From Eledone cirrhosa (Eukaryota), in NCBI GenBank assembly GCA_964016885.1, contig OZ024752.1, positions 49,972,001 to 50,036,000 on the forward strand: 64,000 nucleotides of DNA. Reading direction: 5' to 3'. Of the stretch, positions 1 to 63,212 are shown in pieces. The position numbers and the translations under genes were made by a program. Each line of letters begins with the position of its first letter. Position 1 is the first letter of the stretch. The notes under the pieces were generated by a model. The model did no database searches. It saw nothing but the letters and a program-made list of their open reading frames with translations, and had not been told where the DNA came from.

Positions 1-74
1 ATTACCTTCTTGCTAGCTACCCAACCTTCTTGCTAGCTACCCAACACCCCTCCCTCCCACCCCCACACACCACC

Positions 75-150
75 ATTGCTATTACGTGGACCAATCATAA
101 AACAGAGCCCCCACGTATCACCAGTATTATTACGCGGACCAATCAGAAAC
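75..150 (+). promoter_or_regulatory. Duplicated ~48-bp block with two CCAAT boxes in the LINE 5' UTR (candidate internal Pol II promoter)
   Basis: TATTACGTGGACCAATCA (CCAAT at 91) and TATTACGCGGACCAATCA (CCAAT at 139) both match the NF-Y consensus RRCCAATCA. Function is inferred. Confidence 0.35.
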
Positions 151-269
151 CAGAGGCCTATACTATCGCTTGCCTGGTTGCCTTTCGATATACGATATAT
201 GATGGATGGATGGACTGCGGAATCCTGGAGAGTGGAGGTGAGAGAGAAAAATCTGGACGCTCAGCGACA

Positions 270-3200
270 ATGCCAAAGATAAAGACAAATTCACCCCTTG
301 GACGAGAATGCGAGCACTCCTCATTGTTTCGACCGCGGACGGCTAACATAACCCCATCGCCCCCCGCCCCTCACCGCCCCCAACCCCCAAACGCAATCCA
401 AAACTTCAGAGTTGGTACCATAAATGTAGGCACCCTAAAGGGTCGCGCTAACGAGGTTGTAGAAATGCTTGAACGTAAGGAGGTCGATGTTTGTTGTATT
501 CAAGAGACCAGGTGGAGGGGTGGGTCTGCTAGGTTCATTGAGGGTAAAAAACGTTGTTATAAGCTTTTCTGGGTGGGAAACGACGATGGGCTGGGTGGAG
601 TAGGAATCATGGTAGCAGAAAAGTGGGCAGATAAGATAATAGACGTAAATAGAGTGAACGACAGAATAATTAAAATACGACTTGTCCTCAATAGAACTAC
701 GGTGACAGTAATATCTGCGTACGCACCCCAATCCGGACTGCCCGGCACTATAAAAGACAGATTCTATGAGACACTGATGCTCACTACCTCCCAAATATCT
801 GACAGTGACTATATAATTATTGCAGGCGACCTAAATGGTCACGTTGGGCAACATTGTGACGGCTACGACGAAATCCATGGAGGCTATGGGTTTGGTACTA
901 GAAATGAGGAAGGCTCCAGAATCCTGGAATTCTGTGATGCAAATAACCTAACTATCTGTAACACTAACTTCAAAAAACGTGACAATCACCTGATCACCTA
1001 TAGATCCGGGGAACACACAAGCCAGGTAGATTATATCCTTACCAGAAGACGTGACAGAGTGTCTGTTGTTAACACTAAATCCCTCCCCCATGAAGAATGC
1101 ACCTCCCAACATAGACTGATAATTAGCGACCTCATAGTCAGGACGAGACGTACTCGACAACAGAAGAGGACTATCCTCAGGAGGAAAATATGGAAGCTAA
1201 AGGACCCCACAGCCAGGAATAAATTTCAAAGCATATTACTTGATGCTTTCGACAGTAAGGAAGAACATTTAGAGTCGGACAATATAGAGGGAGAGTGGGA
1301 ATTTCTGAAAGCAAACCTGCTGTTGGCGACAGACGAGGTCTGTGGCTGGAGCAGGCCTGTAGGCAGGAGGAGAGTAACATGGTGGTGGAACAGTAAGGTG
1401 GAGGGGTCAATTAAGGCCAAAAAGCAGGCTTGGAAAGTATGGCGGGATGGGGGAAGTAGAGAGGACTATCAAGTGGCCAGGAGGGAAGCTAGGAGACAAG
1501 TGTACTTAGCAAGAAGGGAAGCTGAGGAAAGAAAGTTCAAGCATGTTCTACAACGCGATGACCAAAAACGTGAGGTGTTCAGGATTGCTAGGCAATGCGT
1601 CAAGGAAAACCGTGATATTGTCGGGGAGAAGTGTGTACTAAACGACGATGGCACACTTGCCATCACCGACGCTGATAAGAAGGTAGCTTGGAAGTGTCAC
1701 TATGAAAGGCTTCTAAATGAGGAGAATAATTGGGAGAAAGGCAGTCTCCCCCATATCGACCCAATAGAGGGACCAGCAGTGTTAGTCGAGGGGAGTATAA
1801 TAAGTAAGGCAATCAAGGATATGAAGACTGGTAAGGCGGCTGGGCCTTCGGAAATAGTTGCTGAGATGCTGAAGGCATCTGGCACGGTGGGACACACCAT
1901 GGTCACCCGCATAGTTAACCAAGTCGTACAGAACGGGGTTGTTCCGAAGGACTGGCATAGCAGCATCATCGTTAACTGTTATAAGGGTAAAGGAGACCCC
2001 CTAGATAGGAGTAACTATAGAGGCATTAAATTAATCGACCAGGTCATGAAGGTCACGGAAAGAGTAATAGCGCAACTAATCAGAGAGAGAATTGACCTAG
2101 ATGAAATGCAGTTCGGGTTTGTGTCAGGCAAAAGTACCACAGACGCTCTTTTCATAGTACGACAACTACAAGAGAAGTACCTAGCTAAAGGTAAACCCCT
2201 CTACTTAGCTTTTGTCGACTTGGAGAAAGCCTTCGACAGAGTCCCCCGCTCCATTATCTGGTGGGCTCTTAGAAAACTAGGCGTTGACGAATGGCTTGTG
2301 AGGGCTATACAAGCCATGTATAAAGAAACAGTCAGCAAGGTTAGAATTAACAACGAATATAGTGAAGAGTTTAGCGTAAAAGTCGGCGTCCATCAGGGCT
2401 CTGTTCTCAGTCCACTACTATTTATTATTGCCCTTCAGGCCATAACAGAGGAGTTCAAGACAGGCTGCCCATGGGAACTCCTATACGCAGACGACCTGAC
2501 ACTCATAGCGGAATCAATGGCCGAGCTAGAGAAGAAATTCCAAACATGGAAGCACGGCCTAGAGTCAAAAGGACTTAAAATTAACCTGGCTAAGACCAAA
2601 GTACTAGTTTGTAGGAAAGAAAACAAGGCGGCGGTCCCTTCTGGGAAATGGTCGTGCTCGGTGTGTAGGAAAGGCGTAGGTAGAAACTCCATTTTATGTC
2701 CTAAATGCAAAGTATGGGTGCATAAAAGATGTAGTGGGATCACAGGTAGGCTAACTAAGAACATAGATTTTACATGTGGCCGGTGCTCTGGTGCAATAAG
2801 TAGCAGCAAGTGCCCACAAACTACTAGCTCTTTCAATTGCGCAGAGGGTTCTATAGAAATAGTGGACAGCTTCCGTTACCTGGGCGATAAAATCAGCAGT
2901 GGGGGAGGGTGCTCTGAAAGTACTGTAGCTAGAGTCAGAACTGGTTGGAAAAAGTTCAGAGAGCTTATACCACTATTAGCTGCTAAAGGGTTCTCACTAA
3001 AAATGAAAGGCAGGTTGTACGATGCCTGCATACGAACAGCAATGCTGCATGGCAGTGAGACCTGGGCATTGTGTGCAGAGGATATACGCAGACTAGAGAG
3101 GAACGAAGCTTGCATGCTCCGCTGGATGTGTAACAGTAATATACGTGAACGGCAAAGCATAAACGAACTAAGGAATAAATTAGAGATAAGAGGGATCAGA

Positions 3201-3440
3201 TGTTGTTTACTCGAGAGAAGGCTACGTTGGTATGGACACGTGATGCGCATGAAAGTCGATAGCTATATAACAAAGTGCAGGGCAATAAAGATAGACGGTA
3301 GTCACGGAATAGGCAGACCTAGAAAAACCTGGGACGAGCTGATAAACTCCGACATCACACACTTACACCTCTCCAAGACAATGTCACTGGACCGAGACCT
3401 TTGGCGGTACTCAGTAACAGAGAAGACCCGCCTTACCTAA
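270..3440 (+). CDS. RTE LINE ORF: APE endonuclease, reverse transcriptase and PHD-type zinc finger (1056 aa from ATG270; in-frame ATG also at 210)
   Basis: APE motifs: GTINV, CIQETRW, SAYAPQ, GDLNGHVG, QVDYIL, SQH. RT motifs: NYRGIKL, QFGF, FVDLEKAFDRV, GVHQGSVLSPLLF, YADD, GLKINLAKTK, FRYLG. RTE C-terminus: LHGSETW, RRLRWYGHVMR, GRPRKTW. No stops or frameshifts. Confidence 0.95.
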   Translation: MPKIKTNSPLGRECEHSSLFRPRTANITPSPPAPHRPQPPNAIQNFRVGTINVGTLKGRANEVVEMLERKEVDVCCIQETRWRGGSARFIEGKKRCYKLFWVGNDDGLGGVGIMVAEKWADKIIDVNRVNDRIIKIRLVLNRTTVTVISAYAPQSGLPGTIKDRFYETLMLTTSQISDSDYIIIAGDLNGHVGQHCDGYDEIHGGYGFGTRNEEGSRILEFCDANNLTICNTNFKKRDNHLITYRSGEHTSQVDYILTRRRDRVSVVNTKSLPHEECTSQHRLIISDLIVRTRRTRQQKRTILRRKIWKLKDPTARNKFQSILLDAFDSKEEHLESDNIEGEWEFLKANLLLATDEVCGWSRPVGRRRVTWWWNSKVEGSIKAKKQAWKVWRDGGSREDYQVARREARRQVYLARREAEERKFKHVLQRDDQKREVFRIARQCVKENRDIVGEKCVLNDDGTLAITDADKKVAWKCHYERLLNEENNWEKGSLPHIDPIEGPAVLVEGSIISKAIKDMKTGKAAGPSEIVAEMLKASGTVGHTMVTRIVNQVVQNGVVPKDWHSSIIVNCYKGKGDPLDRSNYRGIKLIDQVMKVTERVIAQLIRERIDLDEMQFGFVSGKSTTDALFIVRQLQEKYLAKGKPLYLAFVDLEKAFDRVPRSIIWWALRKLGVDEWLVRAIQAMYKETVSKVRINNEYSEEFSVKVGVHQGSVLSPLLFIIALQAITEEFKTGCPWELLYADDLTLIAESMAELEKKFQTWKHGLESKGLKINLAKTKVLVCRKENKAAVPSGKWSCSVCRKGVGRNSILCPKCKVWVHKRCSGITGRLTKNIDFTCGRCSGAISSSKCPQTTSSFNCAEGSIEIVDSFRYLGDKISSGGGCSESTVARVRTGWKKFRELIPLLAAKGFSLKMKGRLYDACIRTAMLHGSETWALCAEDIRRLERNEACMLRWMCNSNIRERQSINELRNKLEIRGIRCCLLERRLRWYGHVMRMKVDSYITKCRAIKIDGSHGIGRPRKTWDELINSDITHLHLSKTMSLDRDLWRYSVTEKTRLT

Positions 3441-3829
3441 ATATATAGTAAAACCTACTCCAGCCAGTAGGCATCTCTAACAAAATACACCCCGTCCCAC
3501 CACCCCCACCCGATCCACACCACCCCGTTCTATGTAAAGTTATGTTGGTGCCGCGCCATCGAGGCCGAAACAAATGAGATCGTGTAGGTGTCACGACAAA
3601 AAAACACACAGTCCACGCTGTAATGTGGCCGTGTAGGCAACACGGTAAAAACCTCCCAGACCCACACTGTAAATGTGGTTGGTGTTAGGAAGGGCATCCA
3701 ACTGTAGAAAACCTGCCAGACAGTCCTATGCGAGCAAGACAATCACTCTTGCCTCAAGTGGGACTACCCCCGTCCAAACCCATGCAAGCGTGGAACACGG
3801 ACGTTAAACGTTGATGATGATGATGATGA

Positions 3830-3874
<45 letters not shown>

Positions 3875-5550: not shown

Positions 5551-6348
5551 TGGTGGTGGTGGTGGTGGTGGTGTTGGTGGTGGTGGTGGTGGTGGTGGTG
5601 GTGGTAGTTGGTGGTGGTGGTGGTTGGTGGTGGTTGTGGTAGTGGTGGTGGTGGTGGTGGTGTTGGTGGTGGTGGTGGTGGTGGTAGTTGGTGGTGGTGG
5701 TGGTTGGTGGTGGTGGTGGTAGTGGTGGTTGTGGTGGTGGTGTTGGTGGTTGGTGGTGGTGGTGGTGGTGGTGGTGGTTGTGGTGTTGGTGGTGGTGGTG
5801 GTTTATGTGGTAGTGGTGGTGGTGGTGTTGGTGGTTGGTAGTTGTTGGTTGTGATGGTGGTAGTGGTGGTGGTAGTGGTGGTGTTGGTGGTTGATGGTGG
5901 TGGTTGTGATGGTGGTTGTGATGGTGGTGGTGGTGGTGATGGTGGTGGTGGTGTTGGTGTTGGTGGTGGTGGTGGTGGTGGTGATGGTGGTGGTGGTGGT
6001 AGTGGTGGTGTTGGTGGTTTATGTGGTAGTGGTGGTGGTTGGTGGTTGGTAGTGGTGGTGGTGGTGGTAGTGGTGGTGTTGGTGGTGGTGGTGGTTGTTG
6101 GTGGTGGTGGTGGTGGTGGTGGTGGTAGTGGTGGTAGTGGTGGTGTTGGTGGTTTATGTGGTAGTGGTGGTGGTTGGTGGTTGGTGGTGGTGATGGTAGT
6201 GGTGGTGTTGGTGGTTGTTGTTGTTGGTGGTCGTGGTGGTGGTAGTGGTAGTGGTGGTTGGTGGTCGTGGTTGTGATGGTGGTGGTGATGGTGCTTGTGG
6301 TGGTGGTGGTGGTGGTGATGGTGGTGGCGGCAGTGGAAGTGGTGGTGG
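5551..6348. repeat. Complex (GGT)n trinucleotide repeat with internal block duplications
   Basis: GGT/TGG repeats; the block GGTTTATGTGGTAGTGGTGG recurs three times. Confidence 0.9.
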
Positions 6349-6931: not shown

Positions 6932-7251
6932 ATATATATATACATATATAAATATAAATATATAGATAGATAGATGTACATATATATGTATTATATTTAT
7001 ATATATATATAGAAAGATATACATATATGTGTAATAGTGATATATTCATTTTGATACTAAACACTTTTACTTTGTCACCAGTACTGTACAACAAAAGGTT
7101 TCTCTCTCCAAACAAAAGACCGGGTGCATGATGTGGTGTGTGATGTGGTGTGTGATGTGGTGTGTGATGTGGTGTGATTTTACATGGTAGTGAGACATGG
7201 GTAGTGAATGCAGAGGATATGTTAAGCCTGGAGGGAAATGAAGCAACCCTG

Positions 7252-10200
7252 CTGTTAATGTGTACAGTTAATGTACACTGTTAATGTGTACAGTTAATGT
7301 GTACAGTTAATGTTCACTGTTAATGTGTACAGTTAATGTGTACAGTTAATGTACACTGTTAATGTGTACAGTTAATGTACACTGTTAATGTGTACAGTTA
7401 ATGTACACTGTTAATGTGTACAGTTAATGTACACTGTTAATGTGTACAGTTAATGTACACTGTTAATGTGTACAGTTAATGTACACTGTTAATGTGCACA
7501 GTTAATGTACACTGTTAATGTGTACAGTTAATGTTCACTGTTAATGTGTACAGTTAATGTGTACAGTTAATGTACACTGTTAATGTGTACAGTTAATGTG
7601 TACAGTTAATGTACACTGTTAATGTGTACAGTTAATGTGTACTGTTAATGTACACTGTTAATGTGTACAGTTAATGTACACTGTTAATGTGTACAGTTAA
7701 TGTACACTGTTAATGTGCACAGTTAATGTACACTGTTAATGTGTACAGTTAATGTTCACTGTTAATGTGTACAGTTAATGTGTACAGTTAATGTACACTG
7801 TTAATGTGTACAGTTAATGTACACTGTTAATGTACACTGTTAATGTGTACAGTTAATGTGTACTGTTAATGTACACTGTTAATGTGTACAGTTAATGTAC
7901 ACTGTTAATGTGTACAGTTAATGTACACTGTTAATGTGCACAGTTAATGTACACTGTTAATGTGTACAGTTAATGTGTACAGTTAATGTACACTGTTAAT
8001 GTGTACAGCTAATGTGTACAGTTAATGTACACTGTTAATGTGTACAGTTAATGTACACTGTTAATGTGTACAGTTAATGTGTACTGTTAATGTACACTGT
8101 TAATGTGTACAGTTAATGTACACTGTTAATGTGTACAGTTAATGTGTACAGTTAATGTACACTGTTAATGTGTACAGCTAATGTGTACAGTTAATGTACA
8201 CTGTTAATGTGTACAGTTAATGTACACTGTTAATGTGTACAGTTAATGTACACTGTTAATGTGTACAGTTAATGTGTACAGTTAATGTACACTGTTAATG
8301 TGTACAGTTAATGTACACTGTTAATGTGTACAGTTAATGTACACTGTTAATGTGTACAGTTAATGTGTACAGTTAATGTACACTGTTAATGTGTACAGCT
8401 AATGTGTACAGTTAATGTACACTGTTAATGTGTACAGTTAATGTACACTGTTAATGTGTACAGTTAATGTACACTGTTAATGTGTACAGTTAATGTGTAC
8501 AGTTAATGTACACTGTTAATGTGTACAGTTAATGTACACTGTTAATGTGTACAGTTAATGTGTACAGTTAATGTACACTGTTAATGTGTACAGCTAATGT
8601 GTACAGTTAATGTACACTGTTAATGTGTACAGTTAATGTGTACAGTTAATGTACACTGTTAATGTGTACAGTTAATGTACACTGTTAATGTGTACAGTTA
8701 ATGTGTACAGTTAATGTACACTGTTAATGTGTACAGCTAATGTGTACAGTTAATGTACACTGTTAATGTGTACAGTTAATGTACACTGTTAATGTGTACA
8801 GTTAATGTACACTGTTAATGTGTACAGTTAATGTACACTGTTAATGTGTACAGTTAATGTACACTGTTAATGTGTACAGTTAATGTACACTGTTAATGTG
8901 CACAGTTAATGTACACTGTTAATGTGTACAGTTAATGTACACTGTTAATGTGTACAGTTAATGTGTACAGTTAATGTACACTGTTAATGTGTACAGCTAA
9001 TGTGTACAGTTAATGTACACTGTTAATGTGTACAGTTAATGTGTACAGTTAATGTACACTGTTAATGTGTACAGTTAATGTACACTGTTAATGTGTACAG
9101 TTAATGTGTACAGTTAATGTACACTGTTAATGTGTACAGCTAATGTGTACAGTTAATGTACACTGTTAATGTGTACAGTTAATGTGTACAGTTAATGTAC
9201 ACTGTTAATGTGTACAGTTAATGTACACTGTTAATGTGTACAGTTAATGTGTACAGTTAATGTACACTGTTAATGTGTACAGCTAATGTGTACAGTTAAT
9301 GTACACTGTTAATGTGTACAGTTAATGTACACTGTTAATGTGTACAGTTAATGTACACTGTTAATGTGTACAGTTAATGTACACTGTTAATGTGTACAGT
9401 TAATGTACACTGTTAATGTGTACAGTTAATGTACACTGTTAATGTGCACAGTTAATGTACACTGTTAATGTGTACAGTTAATGTACACTGTTAATGTGTA
9501 CAGTTAATGTGTACAGTTAATGTACACTGTTAATGTGTACAGCTAATGTGTACAGTTAATGTACACTGTTAATGTGTACAGTTAATGTGTACAGTTAATG
9601 TACACTGTTAATGTGTACAGTTAATGTACACTGTTAATGTGTACAGTTAATGTGTACAGTTAATGTACACTGTTAATGTGTACAGCTAATGTGTACAGTT
9701 AATGTACACTGTTAATGTGTACAGTTAATGTGTACAGTTAATGTACACTGTTAATGTGTACAGTTAATGTACACTGTTAATGTGTACAGTTAATGTGTAC
9801 AGTTAATGTACACTGTTAATGTGTACAGCTAATGTGTACAGTTAATGTACACTGTTAATGTGTACAGTTAATGTACACTGTTAATGTGTACAGTTAATGT
9901 ACACTGTTAATGTGTACAGTTAATGTACACTGTTAATGTGTACAGTTAATGTACACTGTTAATGTGTACAGTTAATGTACACTGTTAATGTGCACAGTTA
10001 ATGTACACTGTTAATGTGTACAGTTAATGTTCACTGTTAATGTGTACAGTTAATGTGTACAGTTAATGTGTACAGTTAATGTACACTGTTAATGTGTACA
10101 GTTAATGTACACTGTTAATGTACACTGTTAATGTGTACAGTTAATGTGTACTGTTAATGTACACTGTTAATGTGTACAGTTAATGTACACTGTTAATGTG

Positions 10201-13200
10201 TACAGTTAATGTGTACAGTTAATGTACACTGTTAATGTGTACAGTTAATGTACACTGTTAATGTGTACAGTTAATGTACACTGTTAATGTGTACAGTTAA
10301 TGTACACTGTTAATGTGTACAGTTAATGTACACTGTTAATGTGTACAGTTAATGTGTACAGTTAATGTACACTGTTAATGTGTACAGTTAATGTACACTG
10401 TTAATGTGTACAGTTAATGTACACTGTTAATGTGTACAGTTAATGTACACTGTTAATGTGCACAGTTAATGTACACTGTTAATGTGTACAGTTAATGTTC
10501 ACTGTTAATGTGTACAGTTAATGTGTACAGTTAATGTACACTGTTAATGTGTACAGTTAATGTACACTGTTAATGTACACTGTTAATGTGTACAGTTAAT
10601 GTGTACTGTTAATGTACACTGTTAATGTGCACAGTTAATGTACACTGTTAATGTGTACAGTTAATGTTCACTGTTAATGTGTACAGCTAATGTGTACAGT
10701 TAATGTACACTGTTAATGTGTACAGTTAATGTACACTGTTAATGTGTACAGTTAATGTACACTGTTAATGTGTACAGTTAATGTACACTGTTAATGTGCA
10801 CAGTTAATGTACACTGTTAATGTGTACAGTTAATGTTCACTGTTAATGTGTACAGTTAATGTGTACAGTTAATGTGTACAGTTAATGTACACTGTTAATG
10901 TGTACAGTTAATGTACACTGTTAATGTGTACAGTTAATGTACACTGTTAATGTGTACAGTTAATGTACACTGTTAATGTGTACAGTTAATGTACACTGTT
11001 AATGTGTACAGTTAATGTACACTGTTAATGTACACTGTTAATGTGTACAGTTAATGTGTACTGTTAATGTACACTGTTAATGTGTACAGTTAATGTACAC
11101 TGTTAATGTGTACAGTTAATGTGTACTGTTAATGTACACTGTTAATGTGTACAGTTAATGTGTACAGTTAATGTGTACAGTTAATGTACACTGTTAATGT
11201 ACACTGTTAATGTGTACAGTTAATGTGTACTGTTAATGTACACTGTTAATGTGTACAGTTAATGTACACTGTTAATGTGTACAGTTAATGTACACTGTTA
11301 ATGTGTACAGTTAATGTACACTGTTAATGTGTACAGTTAATGTACACTGTTAATGTGTACAGTTAATGTACACTGTTAATGTGTACAGTTAATGTGTACT
11401 GTTAATGTACACTGTTAATGTGTACAGTTAATGTGTACAGTTAATGTGTACAGTTAATGTACACTGTTAATGTACACTGTTAATGTGTACAGTTAATGTG
11501 TACTGTTAATGTACACTGTTAATGTGTACAGTTAATGTACACTGTTAATGTGTACAGTTAATGTGTACTGTTAATGTACACTGTTAATGTGTACAGTTAA
11601 TGTACACTGTTAATGTGTACAGTTAATGTTCACTGTTAATGTGTACAGTTAATGTGTACAGTTAATGTACACTGTTAATGTGTACAGTTAATGTACACTG
11701 TTAATGTGTACAGTTAATGTACACTGTTAATGTGTACAGTTAATGTACACTGTTAATGTACACTGTTAATGTGTACAGTTAATGTGTACTGTTAATGTAC
11801 ACTGTTAATGTGTACAGTTAATGTACACTGTTAATGTGTACAGTTAATGTGTACAGTTAATGTACACTGTTAATGTGTACAGTTAATGTACACTGTTAAT
11901 GTGTACAGTTAATGTACACTGTTAATGTGTACAGTTAATGTACACTGTTAATGTGCACAGTTAATGTACACTGTTAATGTGTACAGTTAATGTACACTGT
12001 TAATGTGTACAGTTAATGTACACTGTTAATGTGTACAGTTAATGTACACTGTTAATGTGTACAGTTAATGTACACTGTTAATGTGCACAGTTAATGTACA
12101 CTGTTAATGTGTACAGTTAATGTTCACTGTTAATGTGTACAGTTAATGTGTACAGTTAATGTACACTGTTAATGTGTACAGTTAATGTACACTGTTAATG
12201 TACACTGTTAATGTGTACAGTTAATGTGTACTGTTAATGTACACTGTTAATGTGTACAGTTAATGTACACTGTTAATGTGTACAGTTAATGTGTACAGTT
12301 AATGTACACTGTTAATGTGTACAGTTAATGTACACTGTTAATGTGTACAGTTAATGTACACTGTTAATGTGTACAGTTAATGTACACTGTTAATGTGTAC
12401 AGTTAATGTTCACTGTTAATGTGTACAGTTAATGTGTACTGTTAATGTACACTGTTAATGTGTACAGTTAATGTACACTGTTAATGTGTACAGTTAATGT
12501 GTACTGTTAATGTACACTGTTAATGTGTACAGTTAATGTACACTGTTAATGTGTACAGTTAATGTGTACAGTTAATGTACACTGTTAATGTGTACAGCTA
12601 ATGTGTACAGTTAATGTACACTGTTAATGTGTACAGTTAATGTACACTGTTAATGTGTACAGTTAATGTACACTGTTAATGTGTACAGTTAATGTACACT
12701 GTTAATGTGTACAGTTAATGTACACTGTTAATGTGTACAGTTAATGTACACTGTTAATGTGTACAGTTAATGTACACTGTTAATGTGTACAGTTAATGTA
12801 CACTGTTAATGTGTACAGTTAATGTTCACTGTTAATGTGTACAGTTAATGTACACTGTTAATGTGTACAGTTAATGTACACTGTTAATGTGTACAGTTAA
12901 TGTACACTGTTAATGTGTACAGTTAATGTACACTGTTAATGTGTACAGTTAATGTACACTGTTAATGTGCACAGTTAATGTACACTGTTAATGTGTACAG
13001 TTAATGTTCACTGTTAATGTGTACAGTTAATGTGTACAGTTAATGTACACTGTTAATGTGTACAGTTAATGTACACTGTTAATGTGCACAGTTAATGTAC
13101 ACTGTTAATGTGTACAGTTAATGTTCACTGTTAATGTGTACAGTTAATGTGTACAGTTAATGTACACTGTTAATGTGTACACTTAATGTACACTGTTAAT

Positions 13201-15623
13201 GTGTACAGTTAATGTACACTGTTAATGTGTACAGTTAATGTACACTGTTAATGTGTACAGTTAATGTACACTGTTAATGTGTACAGTTAATGTACACTGT
13301 TAATGTGTACAGTTAATGTACACTGTTAATGTGCACAGTTAATGTACACTGTTAATGTGTACAGTTAATGTTCACTGTTAATGTGTACAGTTAATGTGTA
13401 CAGTTAATGTACACTGTTAATGTGTACAGTTAATGTACACTGTTAATGTGTACAGTTAATGTACACTGTTAATGTGTACAGTTAATGTACACTGTTAATG
13501 TGCACAGTTAATGTACACTGTTAATGTGTACAGTTAATGTTCACTGTTAATGTGTACAGTTAATGTGTACAGTTAATGTACACTGTTAATGTGTACAGTT
13601 AATGTACACTGTTAATGTACACTGTTAATGTGTACAGTTAATGTGTACTGTTAATGTACACTGTTAATGTGTACAGTTAATGTACACTGTTAATGTGTAC
13701 AGTTAATGTGTACAGTTAATGTACACTGTTAATGTGTACAGCTAATGTGTACAGTTAATGTACACTGTTAATGTGTACAGTTAATGTACACTGTTAATGT
13801 GTACAGTTAATGTACACTGTTAATGTGTACAGTTAATGTACACTGTTAATGTGTACAGTTAATGTACACTGTTAATGTGTACACTTAATGTACACTGTTA
13901 ATGTGTACAGTTAATGTACACTGTTAATGTGTACAGTTAATGTACACTGTTAATGTGTACAGTTAATGTACACTGTTAATGTGTACAGTTAATGTGCACA
14001 GTTAATGTGTACAGTTAATGTACACTGTTAATGTGTACAGTTAATGTACACTGTTAATGTGTACAGTTAATGTGTACAGTTAATGTGTACAGTTAACGTG
14101 CACAGTTAATGTGTACAGTTAATGTGTACAGTTAACGTGCACAGTTAATGTGTACAGTTAATGTACACTGTTAATGTGTACACTTAATGTACACTGTTAA
14201 TGTGTACAGTTAATGTACACTGTTAATGTGTACAGTTAATGTACACTGTTAATGTGTACAGTTAATGTACACTGTTAATGTGTACAGTTAATGTACACTG
14301 TTAATGTGTACAGTTAATGTGTACAGTTAATGTACACTGTTAATGTGTACAGTTAATGTGTACAGTTAATGTACACTGTTAATGTGTACACTTAATGTAC
14401 ACTGTTAATGTGTACAGTTAATGTACACTGTTAATGTGTACAGTTAATGTACACTGTTAATGTGTACAGTTAATGTACACTGTTAATGTGTACAGTTAAT
14501 GTACACTGTTAATGTGTACAGTTAATGTGTACAGTTAATGTACACTGTTAATGTGTACAGTTAATGTGTACAGTTAATGTACACTGTTAATGTGTACAGT
14601 TAATGTACACTGTTAATGTGTACAGTTAATGTACACTGTTAATGTGTACAGTTAATGTACACTGTTAATGTGTACAGTTAATGTGTACAGTTAATGTACA
14701 CTGTTAATGTGTACAGTTAATGTGTACAGTTAATGTACACTGTTAATGTGTACACTTAATGTACACTGTTAATGTGTACAGTTAATGTACACTGTTAATG
14801 TGTACAGTTAATGTACACTGTTAATGTGTACAGTTAATGTACACTGTTAATGTGTACAGTTAATGTGTACAGTTAATGTACACTGTTAATGTGTACAGTT
14901 AATGTGTACAGTTAATGTACACTGTTAATGTGTACACTTAATGTACACTGTTAATGTGTACAGTTAATGTACACTGTTAATGTGTACAGTTAATGTACAC
15001 TGTTAATGTGTACAGTTAATGTACACTGTTAATGTGTACAGTTAATGTACACTGTTAATGTGTACAGTTAATGTACACTGTTAATGTGTACAGTTAATGT
15101 ACACTGTTAATGTGTACAGTTAATGTACACTGTTAATGTGTACAGTTAATGTACACTGTTAATGTGTACAGTTAATGTACACTGTTAATGTGTACACTTA
15201 ATGTACACTGTTAATGTGTACAGTTAATGTACACTGTTAATGTGTACAGTTAATGTACACTGTTAATGTGTACAGTTAATGTACACTGTTAATGTGTACA
15301 GTTAATGTACACTGTTAATGTGTACAGTTAATGTACACTGTTAATGTGTACAGTTAATGTACACTGTTAATGTGTACACTTAATGTACACTGTTAATGTG
15401 TACAGTTAATGTACACTGTTAATGTGTACAGTTAATGTACACTGTTAATGTGTACAGTTAATGTACACTGTTAATGTGTACAGTTAATGTACACTGTTAA
15501 TGTGTACAGTTAATGTACACTGTTAATGTGTACAGTTAATGTACACTGTTAATGTGTACACTTAATGTACACTGTTAATGTGTACAGTTAATGTGTACAG
15601 TTAATGTGTACAGTTAATGTACA
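7252..15623 (+). repeat. Satellite array of 644 13-bp monomers (A=GTTAATGTGTACA, B=GTTAATGTACACT), mostly as a 26-bp AB dimer
   Basis: Monomer starts at 7254 and 15613 differ by 643x13, so phase is conserved end to end. Rare variants: GCTAAT, GTGCAC, GTTCAC, GTGTACT, CACTTAAT. Confidence 0.98.
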
Positions 15624-15757
15624 TGAATGATAAAGCATGGATGAGCTGAGAGAAATGCTGGGTATACAAAGAATCAGATGTAGCATGCAGAGTAGAGAAA
15701 AAGGAGAGGAGACTGCTCTGGTATGGACATGTGATGCATATGGATGGTGGTTGTTGG

Positions 15758-16049
15758 TAAGGGCCTTGTTTCAGCGGGGTACCAGGGGATAAGCCCCCCC
15801 ACACACACACACACACACACTTTTTCAAACATCTATGTTTTAATTTTTGTTTATTTTATATAATAAATTCTTTTTAAGCTTATTTTTTTATATCTGAACT
15901 TCATTAGAATATATAAAATTTAATTAGCATAAAATCTTACTTGTGTTAGGGTCTGGGGAAGGCATCATAAGCAATACTAACATGCTCCTTTAAGGACCAA
16001 CAAATGTTGGTTTGTACCCCTCACATTTTAAAGACAAACAAGGCCCCTG
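15758..16049. mobile_element. hAT-type MITE inserted in the RTE relic
   Basis: Imperfect TIRs TAAGGGCCTTGTTT / AAACAAGGCCCCTG; 8-bp TSD GTTGTTGG at 15750-15757 and 16050-16057. Confidence 0.75.
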
Positions 16050-16247
16050 GTTGTTGGGTTAAAAGATGCCAAGAAACCCCAGTAGAAGGAAGCTGTAGTT
16101 GAGGGAAACCGAGGAAGACTGTGAAATGTGATCTCAAATTGCTGAAGTTGAGAGAGGAGATGACAAAGGACCGCAGTGAATGGAGAGATGCTGTCTTGGC
16201 AAAGACACATCCAACCCAAGTAAGCATGGAAAGGCAGACGTAAAACA

Positions 16248-16251
16248 GTGG

Positions 16252-16289
<38 letters not shown>

Positions 16290-16508
16290 GTGATGGTGGT
16301 GATGACGATGATGATGATGGTGATGACAACGATGATGATGATGATGGTGGTGATGGTGGTGATGATGGTGATGATGGTCGTGATGGTGGTGATGATGGTG
16401 ATGATGATGGTGGTGATGATCGTGGTGATGATGATAATGATGATGATGATGGTGATGATGGTAGTGATGACGATGATGATGATGATGGTGACAGCAACAA
16501 TGACACCA

Positions 16509-16559
<51 letters not shown>

Positions 16560-16620
16560 GCGATGGTGATGATGATGGTGATGATGATGATGATAGCAAT
16601 GACAACAATGATGATGATGT
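16248..16620 (+). repeat. Expanded (GAT)n/(GGT)n tail of the RTE relic
   Basis: Directly follows the RTE 3' terminal motif. Confidence 0.85.
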
Positions 16621-19999: not shown

Positions 20000-20736
20000 C
20001 CCTTTAGCAAATACATTACTCTATATATACTTTTAGATTTTCACAGTAAAGATTTTATTTCACATAATATCTCACATAACATTTACATTACTCTATATAT
20101 ACTATTGTATTTTCATGTTAAAGGCTTTACCACACATAATATCTCACATAACATTTACATTACTCTATATATACTATTGTATTGTCACAGTAAAGGCTTT
20201 ATTTCACATAATATCTCACATAACATTTACATTACTCTATATTTACTATTGTATTTTCATGGTAAAGGCTTTACCTCACATAATATCTCACATAACATTT
20301 ACATTACTCTATATATACTATAGTATTTTCATGTTAAAGGCTTTACCTCACATAATATCTCACATAACATTTACATTACTCTATATATACTATTGTATTT
20401 TCACAGTAAAGGCCTTACCTCACATAATATCTCACATAACATTTACATTACTCTATATATACTATTGTATTTTCACAGTAAAGGCTTTACCTCACATAAT
20501 ATCTCACATAACATTTATATTACTCTATATATACTATTGTATTGTCACAGTAAAGGCTTTATTTCACATAATATCTCACATAACATTTACATTACTCTAT
20601 ATATACTATTGTATTTTCATGTTAAAGGCTTTACCTCACATAATATCTCACATAACATTTACATTACTCTATATATACTATTGTATTTTCATGGTAAAGG
20701 CTTTACCTCACATAATATCTCACATAACATTTACAT
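20000..20736 (-). repeat. ~10 x 72-bp tandem array grown from the right subterminal region of the TTAA MITE family
   Basis: Begins TTAA|CCCTTTAGCA; the unit is the reverse complement of ~35500-35572 in the intact MITE. Confidence 0.9.
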
Positions 20737-34878: not shown

Positions 34879-35582
34879 CCCTTTAGCATTTAAACCAGCC
34901 ATATCTGGACAGAATTCTCTCACCTCTTTCTGTTCAAACCAGCCATATCTGACCAGAATTCTCTCACCTCTTCCTGTTCAAACCAGTCATATCTGACCAG
35001 AATTCTCTCACCTCTTTCTGTTCAAACCAGTTATATCCAGCCAGAATTCTCTCACCTCTTTCTGTTCAAACCAGCTATATCCAGCCAGAATTCTCTCACC
35101 TCTTTCTGTTCAAACCAGCTATATCCGGCCAGAATTCTCTCACCTCTTTCTGTTCAAACCAGCCATATCCAGTCAGAATTCTCTCACCTCTTTCTGGTCA
35201 AACCAGCCATATCCAGTCAGAATTCTCTCACCTCTTCCTGTTCAAACCAGCTATATCTGACCAGAATTCTCTCACCTCTTTCTGTTCAAACCAGCTATAT
35301 CCAGCCAGAATTCTCTCACCTCTTTCTGTTCAAACCAGCTATATCCGGCCAGAATTCTCTCACCTCTTTCTGTTCAAACCAGCCATATCCAGTCAGAATT
35401 CTCTCACCTCTTTCTGGTCAAACTGGTTGTAACCAGCCACTCATTCTGATGTTAAGGTGTTGTTCTCAAAATAAATTATATCAAATTCTCATAGATTCGA
35501 TATTATGTGAGATATTATGTAAGATAAAGCCTTTACCATGAAAATACAATAGTATATATTGAGTAATGTAAATGCTAAAGGG
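34879..35582 (+). mobile_element. piggyBac-like MITE (TTAA TSD, 14-bp TIR) containing a 12 x 44-bp array
   Basis: TTAA|CCCTTTAGCATTTA ... TAAATGCTAAAGGG|TTAA; unit AAACCAGCCATATCTGGACAGAATTCTCTCACCTCTTTCTGTTC from 34892 to 35419. Confidence 0.9.
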
Positions 35583-43170: not shown

Positions 43171-44346
43171 CAGGCATGTCAAACTGAGGGAACCCCGAGG
43201 GCCTCATGGGTCACATATGTGTTGTCTGAGGGCCACATGGGTCACATATGTGTTGTCTGAGGGCCACATGGGTCACATATATGTTGTCTGAGAGCCACAT
43301 GGGTCACATATGTGTTGTCTGAGAGCCACATGGGTCACATATGTGTTGTCTGAGGGCCACATCTGTCACATATGGTTGTCTGAGGGCCACATGGGTCACA
43401 TACATGTTGTCTGAGGGCCACATGGGTCACATATGTGTTGTCTGAGGGCCACATGGGTCACATATGTGTTGTCTGAGGGCCACATGGGTCACATATGGTT
43501 GTCTGAGGGCCACATGGGTCACATATGTGTTGTCTGAGGGCCACATGGGTCACATATGTGTTGTCTGAGAGCCACATGTGTCACATATGTGTTGTCTGAG
43601 GGCCACATGGGTCACATATGTGTTGTCTGAGGGCCACATGTGTCACATATGTGTTGTCTGAGGGCCACATGGGTCACATATGGTTGTCTGAGGGCCACAT
43701 ACATGTTGTCTGAGGGCCACATGGGTCACATATGTGTTGTCTGAGGGCCACCTGGGTCACATATGTGTTGTCTGAGGGCCACATGGGTCACATACATGTT
43801 GTCTGAGGGCCACATGGGTCACATACATGTTGTCTGAGGGCCACATGGGTCACATATGTGTTGTCTGAGGGCCACATGGGTCACACATGTGTTGTCTGAG
43901 GGCCACATGGGTCACATATGTGTTGTCTGAGGGCCACATGGGTCACAAATGTGTTGTCTGAGGGCCACATGGGTCACATATGTGTTGTCTGAGGGCCACA
44001 TGGGTCACATATGTGTTGTCTGGGGGCCACATGGGTCACAGATGGTCTGAGGGCCACATGGGTCACATATGTGTTGTCTAAGGGCCACATGGGTCACATA
44101 TGTGTTGTCTGAGAGCCACATGTGTCACATGTGTTGTCTGAGGGCCACATGGGTCACAAATGTGTTGTCTGAGGGCCACATGGGTCACATATGTGTTGTC
44201 TGAGGGCCACACACGACAACTAACTGTGCACATTACAGCTAATATTTTTTATTTTATATTATGAAGATAAAACATGCTCACACTGTAAAAACCTTTGTGT
44301 GGGCCACAGGTGTGGTTGTAAAGGGGCCGCATGTTTGACATGTCTG
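43171..44346. mobile_element. hAT (Charlie-type) MITE containing a ~33 x 31-bp array
   Basis: TIRs CAGGCATGTCAAAC / GTTTGACATGTCTG; 8-bp TSD ATCTAGAT at 43163-43170 and 44347-44354; unit GAGGGCCACATGGGTCACATATGTGTTGTCT from 43197 to 44211. Confidence 0.92.
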
Positions 44347-47119: not shown

Positions 47120-48356
47120 ACTCACGTGGACATGCCTACAAAATCAGAAAACAGCACAGCTCCCATGACTTTCGGAAACATTTTTTCATGCTCAGAGTTG
47201 CTGAAGCATGGAACAAACTACCTGCATCAGTTGTTAGCTGTCGAGACACTGCATCCTTTAAAACCTCCATGGAACAAACTACCTGCATCAGTTGTTAGCT
47301 GTCGAGACACTGCATCCTTTAAAACCTCCATGGAACAAACTACCTGCATCAGTTGTTAGCTGTCGAGACACTGCATCCTTTAAAACCTCCATGGAACAAA
47401 CTACCTGCATCAGTTGTTAGCTGTCGAGACACTGCATCCTTTAAAACCTCCATGGAACAAACTACCTGCATCAGTTGTTAGATGTCGAGACACTGCATCC
47501 TTTCAAACCCCCATGGAACAAACTACCTGCATCAGTTGTGAGCTGTCGAGACACTGCATCCTTTAAAACCTCCATGGAACAAACTACCTGCATCAGTTGT
47601 TAGCTGTCGAGACACTGCATCCTTTAAAACCTCCATGGAACAAACTACCTGCATCAGTTGTTAGCTGTCGAGACACTGCATCCTTTAAAACCTCCATGTA
47701 ACAAACTACCTGCATCAATTGTTAGCTGTCGAGACATTGCATCCTTTAAAACCTCCATGGAACAAACTACCTACATGAGTTGTTAGCTGTCAAGACACTG
47801 CATCCTTTAAAACCTCCATGGAACAAACTACCTGCATCAGTTGTTAGCTGTCAAGACACTGCATCCTTTAAAACCTCCATGGAACAAACTACCTGCATCA
47901 GTTGTTAGCTGTCGAGACACTGCATCCTTTAAAACCTCCATGTAACAAACTACCTGCATCAATTGTTAGCTGTCGAGACATTGCATCCTTTAAAACCTCC
48001 ATGGAACAAACTACCTACATGAGTTGTTAGCTGTCAAGACACTGCATCCTTTAAAACCTCCATGGAACAAACTACCTGCATCAGTTGTTAGCTGTCAAGA
48101 CACTGCATCCTTTAAAAGCTCCATGTAACAAACTACCTGCATCAATTGTTAGCTGTCGAGACACTGCATCCTTTAAAACCTCCATGCTTCCTGAGATTTG
48201 CCAGCACTACACCTGATACACACACACACATGTATTTCATGACTCATACACTATTCACCTCCCTGACATTTGTATATTATTCTATGTACTATATACGCAC
48301 CTTTGATGAGTTGTAGTACACCTGAACACTGTACACAATAATTTCATTATTATTAT
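47120..48356 (+). mobile_element. CR1/L2-group LINE 3' end containing a 16 x 61-bp array
   Basis: RGHAYKIRKQHSSHDFRKHFFMLRVAEAWNKLPASVVSCRDTASFKTSM matches the CR1-type C-terminus. CATG at 47207 and 48183 are exactly 16x61 apart. (ATT)n tail at ~48345. Confidence 0.88.
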
Positions 48357-56910: not shown

Positions 56911-56912
<2 letters not shown>

Positions 56913-57931
56913 AGAATATAGATTTTATATGTGGCCGGTGTTCTGGTGCAATAAGTAGCAGCAAGTGCCCACAAAATACTAGCTCATTTCATTGCACAGA
57001 TGGTTCTATAGAAATAGTGGACACCTTCCGTTACCTGGGTGACAAAATCAGCAGTGGGGGAGGGTGCTCTGAAAGTACAGTAGCTAGAATCAGAACTGGA
57101 TGGAAAAAGTTCAGAGAGCTTATACCACTATTAGCCGCTAAAGGGTTCTCTCTAAAAATGAAAGGCAGGCTGTATGATGCCTGCATACAAACAGCAATGT
57201 TACATGGCAGTGAGACCTGGGCATTGTGTGCAGAGGATATACGCAGACTGGAAAGGAATGAAGCTTGCATGCTCTGCTGGATGTGTTATAGTAATATACG
57301 TGAACGGCAAAGCATAAACGAACTAAGGGAGAAATTAGGAATAAGAGGGATCAGATGTTGTTTACTCAAGAGAAGACTACATTGGTACGGTCACGTGATG
57401 CGCATGAAAGATGACAGCTGTATAAAAAAGTGCAGGGCGATAATAATAGACGGTAGCCACGGAGTAGGCAGACCCAGAAAAACCTGGGACGACTTGATAA
57501 ATTCCGACCTCACACACTTACACCTCTCCAAGACAATGTCACTGGACCGAGATCTTTGGCACTACACAAAGCGAAACCTACAGTCAGTAGGCACCTCTAA
57601 CAAAAATACACCCCTGTCCCACTACCCCCACCCCATCCACACCACCCCCTTCAATGTGAAGTTATGTTGGTACCACAACATCCAGTCCGAAACAAATGAG
57701 GTCGTGTAGGTGGCACGACAAAAAAAACACACAGTCCACGCTGTAATGTGGCCATGTAGGTAACACGGTAAAAACCTCCCAGTCCACACTGTAAACGTGG
57801 TTGGTGTTAGGAAGGGCATCCAGCCGTAGAAAACCTGCCAGACAGTCCTATACAAGCAGGACAACAAATCTTGCCTCAAGTGGGAAAACACCCGTCCAAA
57901 CCCATGCAAGCGTGGAAGATAGACGTTAAAC

Positions 57932-57963
<32 letters not shown>
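56911..57963 (+). mobile_element. 5'-truncated sister copy of the RTE LINE at 1-3833, inserted in (TA)n
   Basis: Aligns to 2756-3833 (KNIDFICGRC..DRDLW, 3' UTR, (GAT)n); a short deletion removes the native stop codon. Confidence 0.95.
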
Positions 57964-57964
<1 letters not shown>

Positions 57965-59474
57965 ATATATATATATATATATATATAAGAAATACTTAGA
58001 ATATTGGTTAATAAAACATAAAACTGAGAAATGGTGAATAGAACTTTGAGAAGGAAACATACATAATTTATGTTAATACGTATAACTCTTCTAATATTAT
58101 CTACATTTAATTAGTGATTAAATAAATAAATAAATAAATCCAGGCATGGTCTTGTGATTTCCATAATAAAAATTCTATCCTTATACATACACAAACACCA
58201 TAAAAAACAACAACAATGACAACAACTGCAAAATTCATGTAAAAGAAATAAGAAAATTATTTCAAAAAGATACACACACGAGACTATCATTTCATTTTTT
58301 TTTTTTCCTGTATTATTTAATTTGTAATTATCAAGATATAAATACTAATAATATTTATTTCAGATAGGATAGAAAGCAGTTAGTGGTTTTGTTTGAAAGA
58401 GGCAGTTCAAACTTGGAAAATCAACTGATGATATAAAGGGACTTATAATTAAAAAAGGTGTAAAATTTCAAAACTATATGAAGAAGGCTGGAGATGACAC
58501 TTTAATTAACCTCATTATTTCATGAAGTTACTCATATGTAAAACGTTTCATTATTTTTACACATATTTAAAATTTTTTTGTTTTGTTTTGTTTGGTGAGG
58601 GGGGGGGGGTCTTCTTCTTCTTCCCACTAGTTAGTATTCTATTGACTGAAGGAGATTCTTGCATCTATTACTGAAGACAAAAAAAAAAGGTTTGTCTAAT
58701 AACATCCACACATAAATAAATATATACACATGCACACACACAAATATATACATATATAAATATATATATATATATGCACATAAATACATACATACATACA
58801 TATACACACACACATATATATATATGTATGTATACATATACATAAATACATACATGCATACCTAGCTACATACATACATACATTGATACATACATAAATA
58901 TATACATACATTCATACATACATACATTTATACATACATAAATACGTACATACATGCATACCAAGCTACATATGTACATACATACACGTACATTCACACA
59001 CATACATGCGCACACACATACACACCCCCACATATGCACACACACACATACATACACGCACACACACACACATACATACATACATACATACATACATACA
59101 TACATACATACATACATACATACATACATACATACATACATACATACATACATAAAAACAAAAATTGAAAATAGGATTGAAAATTTTATTTTTTTCAAAT
59201 TTCAAAATTTATTTCAAAATATTTCTTTATTTCTTTATTCATTTATTTTTAAATTTTTTTTAAAAATTCTTATAAATAAAGATAAAATTTGAAATTATTA
59301 CAGTTCCACAGCAAATTAATGTTCTGCAAAAATCTATGAAAGCCTTCATAGATTCTAATTCCTCGGGTTATTTTGAAAATGAAAGTTTTAAAAATATTAT
59401 TTAACCAAAAAAAGAAAAAAATGATATATATCATTAGTTATATAGATAAAGTGTATGATTGTTGTTGTTTTCAC

Positions 59475-63125: not shown

Positions 63126-63212
63126 ACAGTGGCAAAGAATGCTGCAGTTTTAAGAAGATATTGAAGTAATAAACACTTTGAGGAAAAGAAAGAAAAGAAT
63201 CTCTGTAGAAAC

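What the first reader, a model, noticed from the sequence alone, without database searches (positions are those of the whole stretch)
7072..16270. 8.4-kb satellite grew from 26 bp of RTE ORF2 coding sequence, with both flanks preserved
The left flank reads ..[17 protein letters not shown] and the right flank resumes MCTVNVH-E**SMDELREMLGIQRIRC, collinear with LERNEACMLRWMCNSNIRERQSINELR of the intact LINE. The seed CTGTTAATGTGTACAGTTAATGTACA has GTTAATGT twice, 13 bp apart, which explains both monomers A and B. The host LINE is old (stop codons, later MITE insertion) while the array is very homogeneous, so expansion or homogenisation came long after insertion. This would be a locus where satellite origin is resolvable to the base pair.
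Basis: seen in the sequence. Interest (0 to 1): 0.75.

Follow-up and report, generated by a model that had tools for sequence, protein, structure and literature searches.

The report
Single-locus minisatellite born inside a dead LINE
An 8.4-kb array of 13-bp units, found at only this place in the assembly, interrupts an old broken LINE retrotransposon copy and most likely grew there from about 20 bp of the element's own coding sequence, which is a well-known and ordinary way for minisatellites to arise.

Summary
Window 7252-15623 is 8,372 bp, exactly 644 head-to-tail 13-bp units with no indels, organised as A/B dimers (26 bp) and blocks of up to 546 bp.

If all but one dimer is removed, the flanks rejoin in frame. 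They then align as one piece to the window's intact LINE ORF and to 23 of 31 sibling LINE copies. A 291-bp MITE with a 9-bp target duplication lies further downstream.

The array family occurs nowhere else in the 3.0-Gb assembly: every match at 3 mismatches or fewer lies in this array. Growth in place from LINE coding sequence is therefore well supported.

GTTAATGT occurring twice is not ancestral. In the siblings it occurs once, and both monomers match that one 13-mer (10-11 of 13) better than the 13-mer next to it (7 of 13). The ancestral repeat at 13-bp spacing is ATGTGCA, which fits the direct-repeat model of minisatellite birth.

The right edge is sharp. The left edge is blurred over about 7 bp, with a net loss of 3 bp. 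"RTE" fits but was not tested by phylogeny.

This is a single-locus minisatellite, not a satellite family, and a new member of a known kind. Interest is modest.

The parts
7072..7251 (+). Left flank: the 5'-truncated, decayed LINE fragment, matching ORF residues of about 1000-1040 of the window's intact LINE
   Evidence: blastn to sibling copies starts at 7088. tblastn covers 7177-7278. Homology over 7072-7087 was judged by eye from the translation only.
7129..7176 (+). A perfect 12-bp x 4 tandem repeat (TGATGTGGTGTG) inside the same LINE fragment
   Evidence: TRF gives 100% matches. Siblings carry a single GT-rich stretch here.
7252..15623 (+). The minisatellite array: 644 x 13 bp. Monomer counts are A (CTGTTAATGTGTA) 256, B (CAGTTAATGTACA) 231, C 76, D 25, E 15, F 15, G 14, H 9, I 2, J 1.
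   Evidence: There are no indels. Only unit positions 2, 11 and 12 vary commonly.
8452..10031 (+). The youngest part of the array: about 2.9 perfect copies of a 546-bp (42-monomer) higher-order block
   Evidence: The longest perfect run at lag 546 is 1,033 bp starting at 8452. The monomer map shows the block.
15624..15757 (+). Right flank: the LINE coding sequence resumes (TGAATGATAAAGC...), with in-frame TGA and TAA at 15628-15633
   Evidence: Siblings match from inside the last unit onward at 75-80% identity.
15758..16048 (.). A 291-bp MITE-like insertion with terminal inverted repeats; target-site duplication GGTTGTTGG at 15749-15757 and 16049-16057
   Evidence: 5,064 first-look candidates in the genome, 40 of them scored, with matches at 85-89% identity. 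One search gives the duplication coordinates. Siblings run through the empty site.
16049..16251 (+). The 3' end of the LINE fragment: ORF C-terminus homology up to about 16216, then a short 3' UTR
   Evidence: tblastn covers ORF residues 1088-1145. blastn to siblings reaches 16260.
16252..16594 (+). The LINE's (TGA)n tail, expanded to about 113 copies
   Evidence: TRF. All 9 of 9 siblings that reach the 3' end stop in a short run of TGA/ATG-type triplets.
3..3862 (+). Comparator: a related, intact-looking LINE with a 1,145-aa open frame (open at its 5' end) and a 3' UTR reaching at least 3862
   Evidence: One search lists the ORF. Pfam finds Exo_endo_phos, RVT_1 and PHD. The stretch 2756-3862 matches a second partial copy at 56911-57987 at 88% identity.

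Best explanation

Shown directly:
- the array and its structure;
- collinearity of the two flanks;
- the sibling state at the seed;
- restriction of the motif to this locus in the assembly;
- the age of the host copy.

Inferred order of events:
1. An old LINE copy inserted, 5'-truncated, and decayed. One change was A to C at unit position 1, which is now present in all 644 units.
2. The stretch ATGTGCA-ATGTTA-ATGTGCA (20 bp) misaligned on its direct repeat, giving a 13-bp tandem duplication. This is the Haber and Louis type of initiation.
3. Point variants at unit positions 2, 11 and 12 produced monomers A and B. Variant F (CTGTTAATGTGCA) still matches the progenitor at 12 of 13 positions.
4. 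Unequal exchange in 13-bp register amplified dimers, then trimers, then blocks of up to 546 bp. The last such events were very recent.
5. Exchange or conversion at the left edge overwrote about 7 bp of flank.

No function is implied. The array is most likely neutral repeat turnover.
For: Collinearity:
- One tblastn alignment crosses the junction once the array is removed.
- 8 of 11 and then 23 of 31 sibling LINE copies give a single blastn alignment spanning the retained dimer. The 8 that miss begin at or inside the seed.

Ancestral state (23 siblings):
- The majority reads ...GCATGCTT TGATGGATGTGCA ATGTTAATGTGCA TGAATGAC..., so ATGTGCA stands twice, 13 bp apart.
- Identity to the second 13-mer is F 12, A 11 and B 10 of 13. 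Identity to the first 13-mer is 7-8 of 13.
- The array ends ...ATGTACA|TGAATG, which is a partial unit equal to the second copy of the direct repeat.

Locus specificity:
- The exact 26-mer occurs 152 times in the genome, and all 152 are in the window.
- At 3 mismatches or fewer there are 361 matches in the genome, and all 361 are in the array.
- A 34-nt pattern of core plus AC linker gives 643 forward and 5 reverse matches, against 5 and 1 for the control. A looser core-only pattern has 642 matches in the window, all in units that carry the AC linker.

No parallel expansion:
- A search for two copies of the ancestral 13-mer gave 8 hits, and none is an expanded LINE copy.

Age contrast:
- The host differs from the sibling majority at 19 of 195 sites (9.7%). 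The sibling median is 11.5%.
- Inside the array there is a 1,033-bp perfect repeat at lag 546.

Read depth:
- In run X1 the array unitig has depth 1,214 and the unique flank has depth 5, a ratio of about 243.
- The commonest 31-mers occur 218 times in the assembled array.

Published context:
- 23% of human minisatellites and satellites derive from transposable elements.
- Flanking direct repeats in those cases are most often 7 bp (passages of PMC3389668).
Against: - No unexpanded allele or orthologous locus could be examined, so growth in place rests on comparison with paralogous LINE copies.
- The left boundary does not fit a clean duplication. The host reads CTGTTA where siblings read CTTTGATGG, a net loss of 3 bp, so an extra conversion or deletion step has to be assumed.
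- The direct repeat is seen in a majority of decayed copies. Two of the 7 loci whose contexts were printed (L058 and L056) and sibling L050 read ATGTGCG or ATGTGCGTG at the second repeat, so the active element may have carried a CpG there and only a 6-bp repeat.
- One sibling, L062, has GTTAATGT twice 13 bp apart without any expansion.
- Run X1 may come from the same sample as the assembly, and its flank depth rests on a single 160-nt contig.
- Reads across the right junction could not be obtained.
Confidence: 0.8

Rival explanations
1. One reading: a 26-bp seed of two adjacent LINE 13-mers, already carrying GTTAATGT twice, expanded as a dimer. Monomer A would descend from the upstream 13-mer and B from the downstream one.
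For: The dominant periodicity is 26 bp: identity is 92.4% at lag 26 against 80.3% at lag 13. One unexpanded sibling LINE copy, L062, reads TGGTTAATGTACA ATGTTAATGTGCA, with GTTAATGT twice 13 bp apart. Such a state can therefore exist before expansion.
Against: In the majority of 23 siblings the upstream 13-mer is TGATGGATGTGCA. Monomer A matches it at only 7 of 13 positions, all of them also shared with the downstream 13-mer, but matches the downstream 13-mer at 11 of 13. Recombinant monomers C (76) and D (25) show that exchange happens in 13-bp register. The host is 3 bp shorter than siblings exactly where the upstream 13-mer should lie.
Confidence: 0.12
2. The array formed elsewhere and was inserted into the LINE fragment, and the resemblance to LINE sequence is coincidental.
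For: None specific. The genome holds many other kb-scale 13-bp minisatellites with GTTAGTGT-like or GTTAATAT-like cores.
Against: No copy of the family exists outside this locus. The units match the interrupted LINE sequence at 10-12 of 13 positions. The flanks rejoin with only a 3-bp loss, with no target-site duplication and no foreign sequence. The other 13-bp arrays have unrelated linkers.
Confidence: 0.02
3. The tandem repeat was already present in the source LINE (a master copy with an internal variable repeat) and was copied in at insertion.
For: Some LINEs carry internal repeats. In this window a 48-bp unit of the LINE 3' UTR also forms an array at 63209-63995.
Against: None of the 31 fetched sibling copies shows any duplication at this site. 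The genome search for two tandem ancestral units found no expanded LINE copy. All units carry a change, C at position 1, that 0 of 23 siblings have.
Confidence: 0.02
4. The array is real, but its assembled length or internal order is an assembly artefact.
For: Perfect 546-bp blocks are hard to assemble. Only one run that might be independent was available, and it may be the source sample.
Against: The depth ratio of about 243 in X1 unitigs agrees with 218 occurrences of the commonest 31-mers in the assembly. The array is in perfect 13-bp phase and has structured variant domains.
Confidence: 0.05

Closest known systems
Minisatellites derived from transposable elements and started by short flanking direct repeats. 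This is the Haber and Louis model and covers Alu-derived minisatellites (Jurka and Gentles), both as described in Ahmed and Liang 2012 (PMC3389668; passages read).
   Same: A segment of a transposable element bracketed by a roughly 7-bp direct repeat becomes the repeat unit. The array ends in a partial unit equal to the repeat. Expansion is by local duplication.
   Different: The unit is very short (13 bp) and the array very long (644 units, 8.4 kb) with higher-order blocks. The source is LINE coding sequence in an invertebrate-type, repeat-rich genome rather than a human Alu. Per the passage read, the majority of the 6,817 human arrays left unexplained by the two models have only two units.
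Satellites with homology to LINE ORF2: PROsat of Phodopus roborovskii, Pvc20 of the harbour seal, and chicken HinfI/CR1. All are listed in the review PMC9659126 (passages and table rows read).
   Same: Tandem repeats whose monomer derives from the coding region of a non-LTR retrotransposon.
   Different: The review calls those satellite DNAs (satDNA), whereas this array stands at one locus. Here both LINE flanks are still attached. The reviewed passages do not say how many loci those satellites occupy or whether their flanks are preserved.
Classical satellite DNA with higher-order repeats
   Same: Head-to-tail monomers, dimer and higher-order periodicity (26 bp up to 546 bp), local homogenisation, and domains of variants.
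   Different: It is not multi-locus and not abundant, making up about 0.0003% of the assembly. Nothing shows a heterochromatic or centromeric setting.

Membership tests
TE-derived minisatellite started by direct repeats (Haber and Louis type) | The progenitor sequence has a short direct repeat (5-10 bp) bracketing the future unit | tested here: met
   The majority of 23 siblings has ATGTGCA twice, 13 bp apart. Caveat: the second copy may have been ATGTGCG in the active element.
TE-derived minisatellite started by direct repeats (Haber and Louis type) | The array flanks are collinear with the progenitor element | tested here: met
   A single tblastn alignment crosses the junction. 23 of 31 siblings give one blastn alignment spanning it. 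There is a net 3-bp loss at the left edge.
TE-derived minisatellite started by direct repeats (Haber and Louis type) | The array ends in a partial unit that corresponds to the second copy of the direct repeat | tested here: met
   The array ends ...GTTA ATGTACA and is followed by TGAATG, matching the sibling ATGTGCA TGAATG.
TE-derived minisatellite started by direct repeats (Haber and Louis type) | An unexpanded allele or orthologue exists | not testable with these tools
   No relatives of G000 are held. The RAD-seq runs X2-X4 hit only other LINE copies.
Satellite DNA family | Abundant, and present at many loci or in large blocks | tested here: not met
   All 152 exact matches and all 361 matches at 3 mismatches or fewer lie in this one array. 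The core-plus-linker pattern finds nothing above control level outside it.
Satellite DNA family | Head-to-tail monomers with higher-order repeat structure | tested here: met
   644 units in phase. A 546-bp block is repeated about 2.9 times without a single difference.
RTE clade of non-LTR retrotransposons (defining features recalled, not taken from a call) | One long ORF with an N-terminal AP-type endonuclease followed by reverse transcriptase | tested here: met
   The window's LINE ORF has Exo_endo_phos at residues 50-267 and RVT_1 at 580-780 of the 1,056-aa query. It also has a PHD finger at 796-839, which I do not recall as an RTE feature.
RTE clade of non-LTR retrotransposons (defining features recalled, not taken from a call) | A very short 3' UTR ending in a simple repeat rather than poly(A) | tested here: inconclusive
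   Met for the host fragment's family: 9 of 9 siblings end in a short run of TGA/ATG-type triplets about 35 bp after the ORF homology. Not met for the window's intact LINE, whose 3' UTR is at least 420 bp.
RTE clade of non-LTR retrotransposons (defining features recalled, not taken from a call) | The reverse transcriptase groups with RTE reference elements in a phylogeny | not tested
   No reference RTE sequences were available from a tool. A paper search did not settle whether RTE elements carry a PHD finger.
MITE (the insertion at 15758-16048) | Short, non-coding, terminal inverted repeats, target-site duplication, high copy number | tested here: met
   291 bp long. Its ends are AAGGGCCTTGTTT and AAACAAGGCCCCT. 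The 9-bp duplication is confirmed. There are 5,064 first-look candidates in the genome, with scored matches at 85-89% identity.

The most novel reading that the evidence does not exclude
This is a proto-satellite caught at the single-locus stage. Its founder-like monomer is still present: variant F matches the LINE progenitor at 12 of 13 positions. Its seeding direct repeat can still be read in the sibling copies. The genome around it repeatedly builds kb-scale 13-bp minisatellites. If individuals or sister species carry shorter or unexpanded alleles, the locus would give a stepwise, near base-level record of how coding DNA of a dead retrotransposon turns into satellite-like DNA. It might also reveal a genome-specific bias towards 13-bp units.
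Probability: 0.12. Interest if true: 0.55.

Novelty: new member of a known kind. Interest (0 to 1): 0.3.

Why it matters
It is a clean, well-bounded example of tandem-repeat birth inside a transposable element. The progenitor sequence, the short direct repeat that probably started the duplication, a founder-like monomer and recent block amplifications can all be read at one locus. That makes it a useful teaching case and a candidate variable marker.

It does not open a new question. Transposable elements are already known to account for about a quarter of human minisatellites and satellites (PMC3389668), and satellites derived from LINE ORF2 are on record (PMC9659126). In this window tandem expansions are everywhere, including two more inside the same LINE fragment.

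Tried and rejected
- Reads across the right junction (read laying on 15546-16251) were requested nine times and never answered because the machine was busy.
- On the left junction the RAD-seq runs X2-X4 covered only other LINE copies. Their reads end at GCATG sites that the host copy lacks, so they say nothing about alleles of this locus.
- A loose core-only pattern (GTTAATGT three times at 13-bp spacing, 3 mismatches or fewer) gave 1,252 forward and 830 reverse hits, of which 642 are in the window. The hits elsewhere turned out to be other 13-bp minisatellites with unrelated linkers: on C5 around 104.92 Mb, C2 around 307.78 Mb, C19, C1, and C12 around 6.83 Mb, plus a 7-copy array on C24. They were rejected as relatives.
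- L056, a perfect 13-bp tandem pair similar to the ancestral unit, has no LINE homology at that site and was rejected as chance.
- A DNA fold of 130 nt of the array is more stable than shuffled versions (z -3.46; 1 of 200 shuffles folds as well). This only weakly suggests that hairpins help slippage and is not used as evidence.
- This scan's earlier findings held nothing on this genome or topic.
- Paper searches for a PHD finger in RTE elements did not settle the clade.
Full report
**1. The observation**

Tandem Repeats Finder reports one dominant array at 7252-15620: period 26, 321.9 copies, 92% matches and 0% indels.
- Cut at 13 bp, the stretch 7252-15623 is exactly 644 units (8,372 bp) in unbroken phase.
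- Seven of the 13 positions are invariant in 644 of 644 units. Three more are at least 97.8% invariant. Only positions 2 (T 296, A 348), 11 (G 364, A 265, T 15) and 12 (T 346, C 298) vary commonly.
- There are ten monomer types: A CTGTTAATGTGTA 256, B CAGTTAATGTACA 231, C 76, D 25, E 15, F 15, G 14, H 9, I 2, J 1.
- C and D are recombinants of A and B, so exchange occurs in 13-bp register.
- Identity is 80.3% at lag 13, 92.4% at lag 26 and 90.4% at lag 546.
- A 546-bp block of 42 monomers is repeated about 2.9 times from 8452, with 1,033 consecutive positions identical at lag 546.
- Variants E, F, D and G lie in the left and middle parts of the array, and variant H lies at the right end.

**2. 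The flanks**

The window holds an intact-looking LINE with a 1,145-aa open frame at 3-3440. Pfam finds Exo_endo_phos, RVT_1 and a PHD finger in it.
- tblastn of that ORF against the rest of the window hits 7177-7278, 15595-15696, 15704-15742 and 16055-16216, in collinear order.
- After 7278-15623 is removed in a script (8,346 bp, a multiple of 3), one alignment crosses the junction. It covers ORF residues 1014-1072 with 30 of 59 identities, a single 1-residue gap at the left edge and E 2e-13.

**3. Sibling copies and the ancestral state**

The right flank finds a large family of closer LINE copies in the genome: 2,461 first-look candidates, of which 40 were scored, at 75-80% identity. I held 31 of them.
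- 8 of the first 11 and 23 of all 31 give a single blastn alignment that spans the retained dimer. The other 8 begin at or inside the seed.
- Nine of the 23 also run through the MITE site to the 3' end.
- In the alignment of these 23 the majority reads ...GCATGCTT TGATGGATGTGCA ATGTTAATGTGCA TGAATGACAAAGC... The host reads ...CCCTGCT GTTAATGTGTA CAGTTAATGTACA TGAATGATAAAGC...

Three things follow.
- GTTAATGT occurs once in the ancestor, not twice.
- Monomers F, A and B match the second ancestral 13-mer at 12, 11 and 10 of 13 positions, and the first at only 8, 7 and 7. Both main monomers therefore descend from one 13-mer.
- The ancestor does carry a 7-bp direct repeat, ATGTGCA, at exactly 13-bp spacing, and the array ends in a partial unit (ATGTACA) that corresponds to its second copy.

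This is the arrangement that the direct-repeat model of minisatellite initiation requires. Ahmed and Liang describe that model and report that flanking repeats of TE-derived tandem repeats are mostly 7 bp (PMC3389668; passages read).

The left edge is less clean. The host has CTGTTA where siblings have CTTTGATGG, a net loss of 3 bp. The simplest inference is that array sequence overwrote a few bases of flank. The origin is therefore resolved to the base on the right side and to about 7 bp on the left.

**4. Is the repeat present elsewhere?**
- The exact 26-mer occurs 152 times in the 3.0-Gb assembly, and all 152 are in the window.
- With up to 3 mismatches there are 361 matches on the forward strand and 0 on the reverse, and all 361 are in the array.
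- A 34-nt pattern of three cores with the AC linker gives 643 forward and 5 reverse matches, against 5 and 1 for the control. A looser core-only pattern has 642 matches in the window, all in units that carry that linker.
- The looser core-only pattern does hit elsewhere. Those hits are other 13-bp minisatellites with unrelated linkers.
- A search for two tandem copies of the ancestral 13-mer found 8 places. One is in the window. Five are ordinary or truncated LINE copies. One (L056) is unrelated.
- No sibling copy is expanded.

**5. Read support**

One public run, X1, holds part of the stretch. It is stored as contigs and may be the source sample of the assembly.
- The unique left flank has word depth 5 and the array unitig has depth 1,214, a ratio of about 243.
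- The commonest 31-mers occur 218 times in the assembled array.
- This rough agreement argues against large hidden arrays and against gross misassembly.
- The RAD-seq runs X2-X4 covered only other LINE copies.
- I did not lay reads on the whole array, so reads that skip it could not be sought. The right junction call did not complete.

**6. Age**
- Outside the seed, the host differs from the sibling majority at 19 of 195 sites (9.7%). This lies within the sibling range of 7.9-15.4%, median 11.5%.
- The host has in-frame TGA and TAA at 15628-15633, a frame change before 15704, a 13-nt insertion that siblings lack, and a 291-bp MITE at 15758-16048. The MITE has a 9-bp target duplication, and its genomic copies are 85-89% identical to it.
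- All 644 units carry C at position 1, where 0 of 23 siblings have C. That change either came before the expansion or was swept through the array.
- Together with the perfect 546-bp blocks, this supports an old insertion and a later, partly very recent, amplification.

**7. Context**

Tandem expansion is commonplace here. TRF lists more than 170 rows in 64 kb.

The same LINE fragment carries two further expansions:
- a perfect 12-bp x 4 repeat at 7129-7176;
- a (TGA)n tail of about 113 copies at 16252-16594, where 9 of 9 siblings have only a short run of TGA/ATG-type triplets.

A 48-bp x 16.6 array at 63209-63995 is homologous to the 3' UTR of the window's LINE.

**8. What is known**
- A review lists satellites with homology to LINE ORF2: PROsat, Pvc20 and chicken HinfI/CR1 (PMC9659126; passages and table rows read).
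- Ahmed and Liang report that at least 23% of human minisatellites and satellites derive from transposable elements (PMC3389668; abstract and passages read).
- The finding is therefore a new, unusually tidy member of a known kind. It is a single-locus minisatellite rather than a satellite family.
- The 'RTE' label fits the domain order and the short, simple-repeat-tailed 3' end of the host family. It was not tested by phylogeny, and the PHD finger and the long 3' UTR of the intact copy leave it open.

**9. Verdict**
- Confidence in the direct-repeat, 13-bp-unit account is about 0.8.
- Interest is 0.3.

Noticed in passing
window 63209-63995 (runs off the window end): A 48-bp x 16.6 tandem array (88% matches) is homologous at 75-80% to the 3' UTR of the window's LINE (3580-3679), which itself holds about two copies of the unit. 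This is a second LINE-derived array in the same window.
   Followed up: partly
window 47207-48186: A 61-bp x 16.1 array with 96% matches. One frame of the unit reads WNKLPASVVSCRDTASFKT. From memory this resembles a C-terminal motif of CR1/L2-type LINE ORF2 proteins, so it may be another array derived from coding sequence (the motif is recalled, not tested).
   Followed up: no
window 16252-16594: The LINE's (TGA)n tail has about 113 copies here. All 9 of 9 sibling copies have only a short run of TGA/ATG-type triplets.
   Followed up: yes
window 7129-7176: A perfect 12-bp x 4 repeat (TGATGTGGTGTG) lies inside the same LINE fragment, derived from a GT-rich stretch of the LINE.
   Followed up: partly
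L062 (G000:C28:67474837-67474862): A sibling LINE copy whose upstream 13-mer reads TGGTTAATGTACA, so GTTAATGT stands twice 13 bp apart without expansion. It may be an intermediate or a chance variant.
   Followed up: partly
G000:C5:104923172-104927392, C2:307783394-307794261, C19 around 35.4-39.7 Mb, C12:6832725-6833091: Other kb-scale minisatellites with a 13-bp period and GTTAGTGT-like or GTTAATAT-like cores but unrelated linkers. 13-bp arrays seem frequent in this genome.
   Followed up: no
window 15681-15693 (approximate): A host-specific 13-nt insertion (AGAGTAGAGAAAA) relative to all 8 aligned siblings and to both LINE copies in the window.
   Followed up: no
window 5551-6348; 20012-20736; 34892-35423; 43197-44211: More long arrays: (TGG)n with 261 copies, 72-bp x 10, 44-bp x 12 and 31-bp x 33. 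The whole window is exceptionally rich in tandem repeats.
   Followed up: no
window 56911-57987: A second, partial copy of the window's LINE. It is 88% identical to 2756-3862 and shows that the 3' UTR of that family reaches at least 3862.
   Followed up: partly
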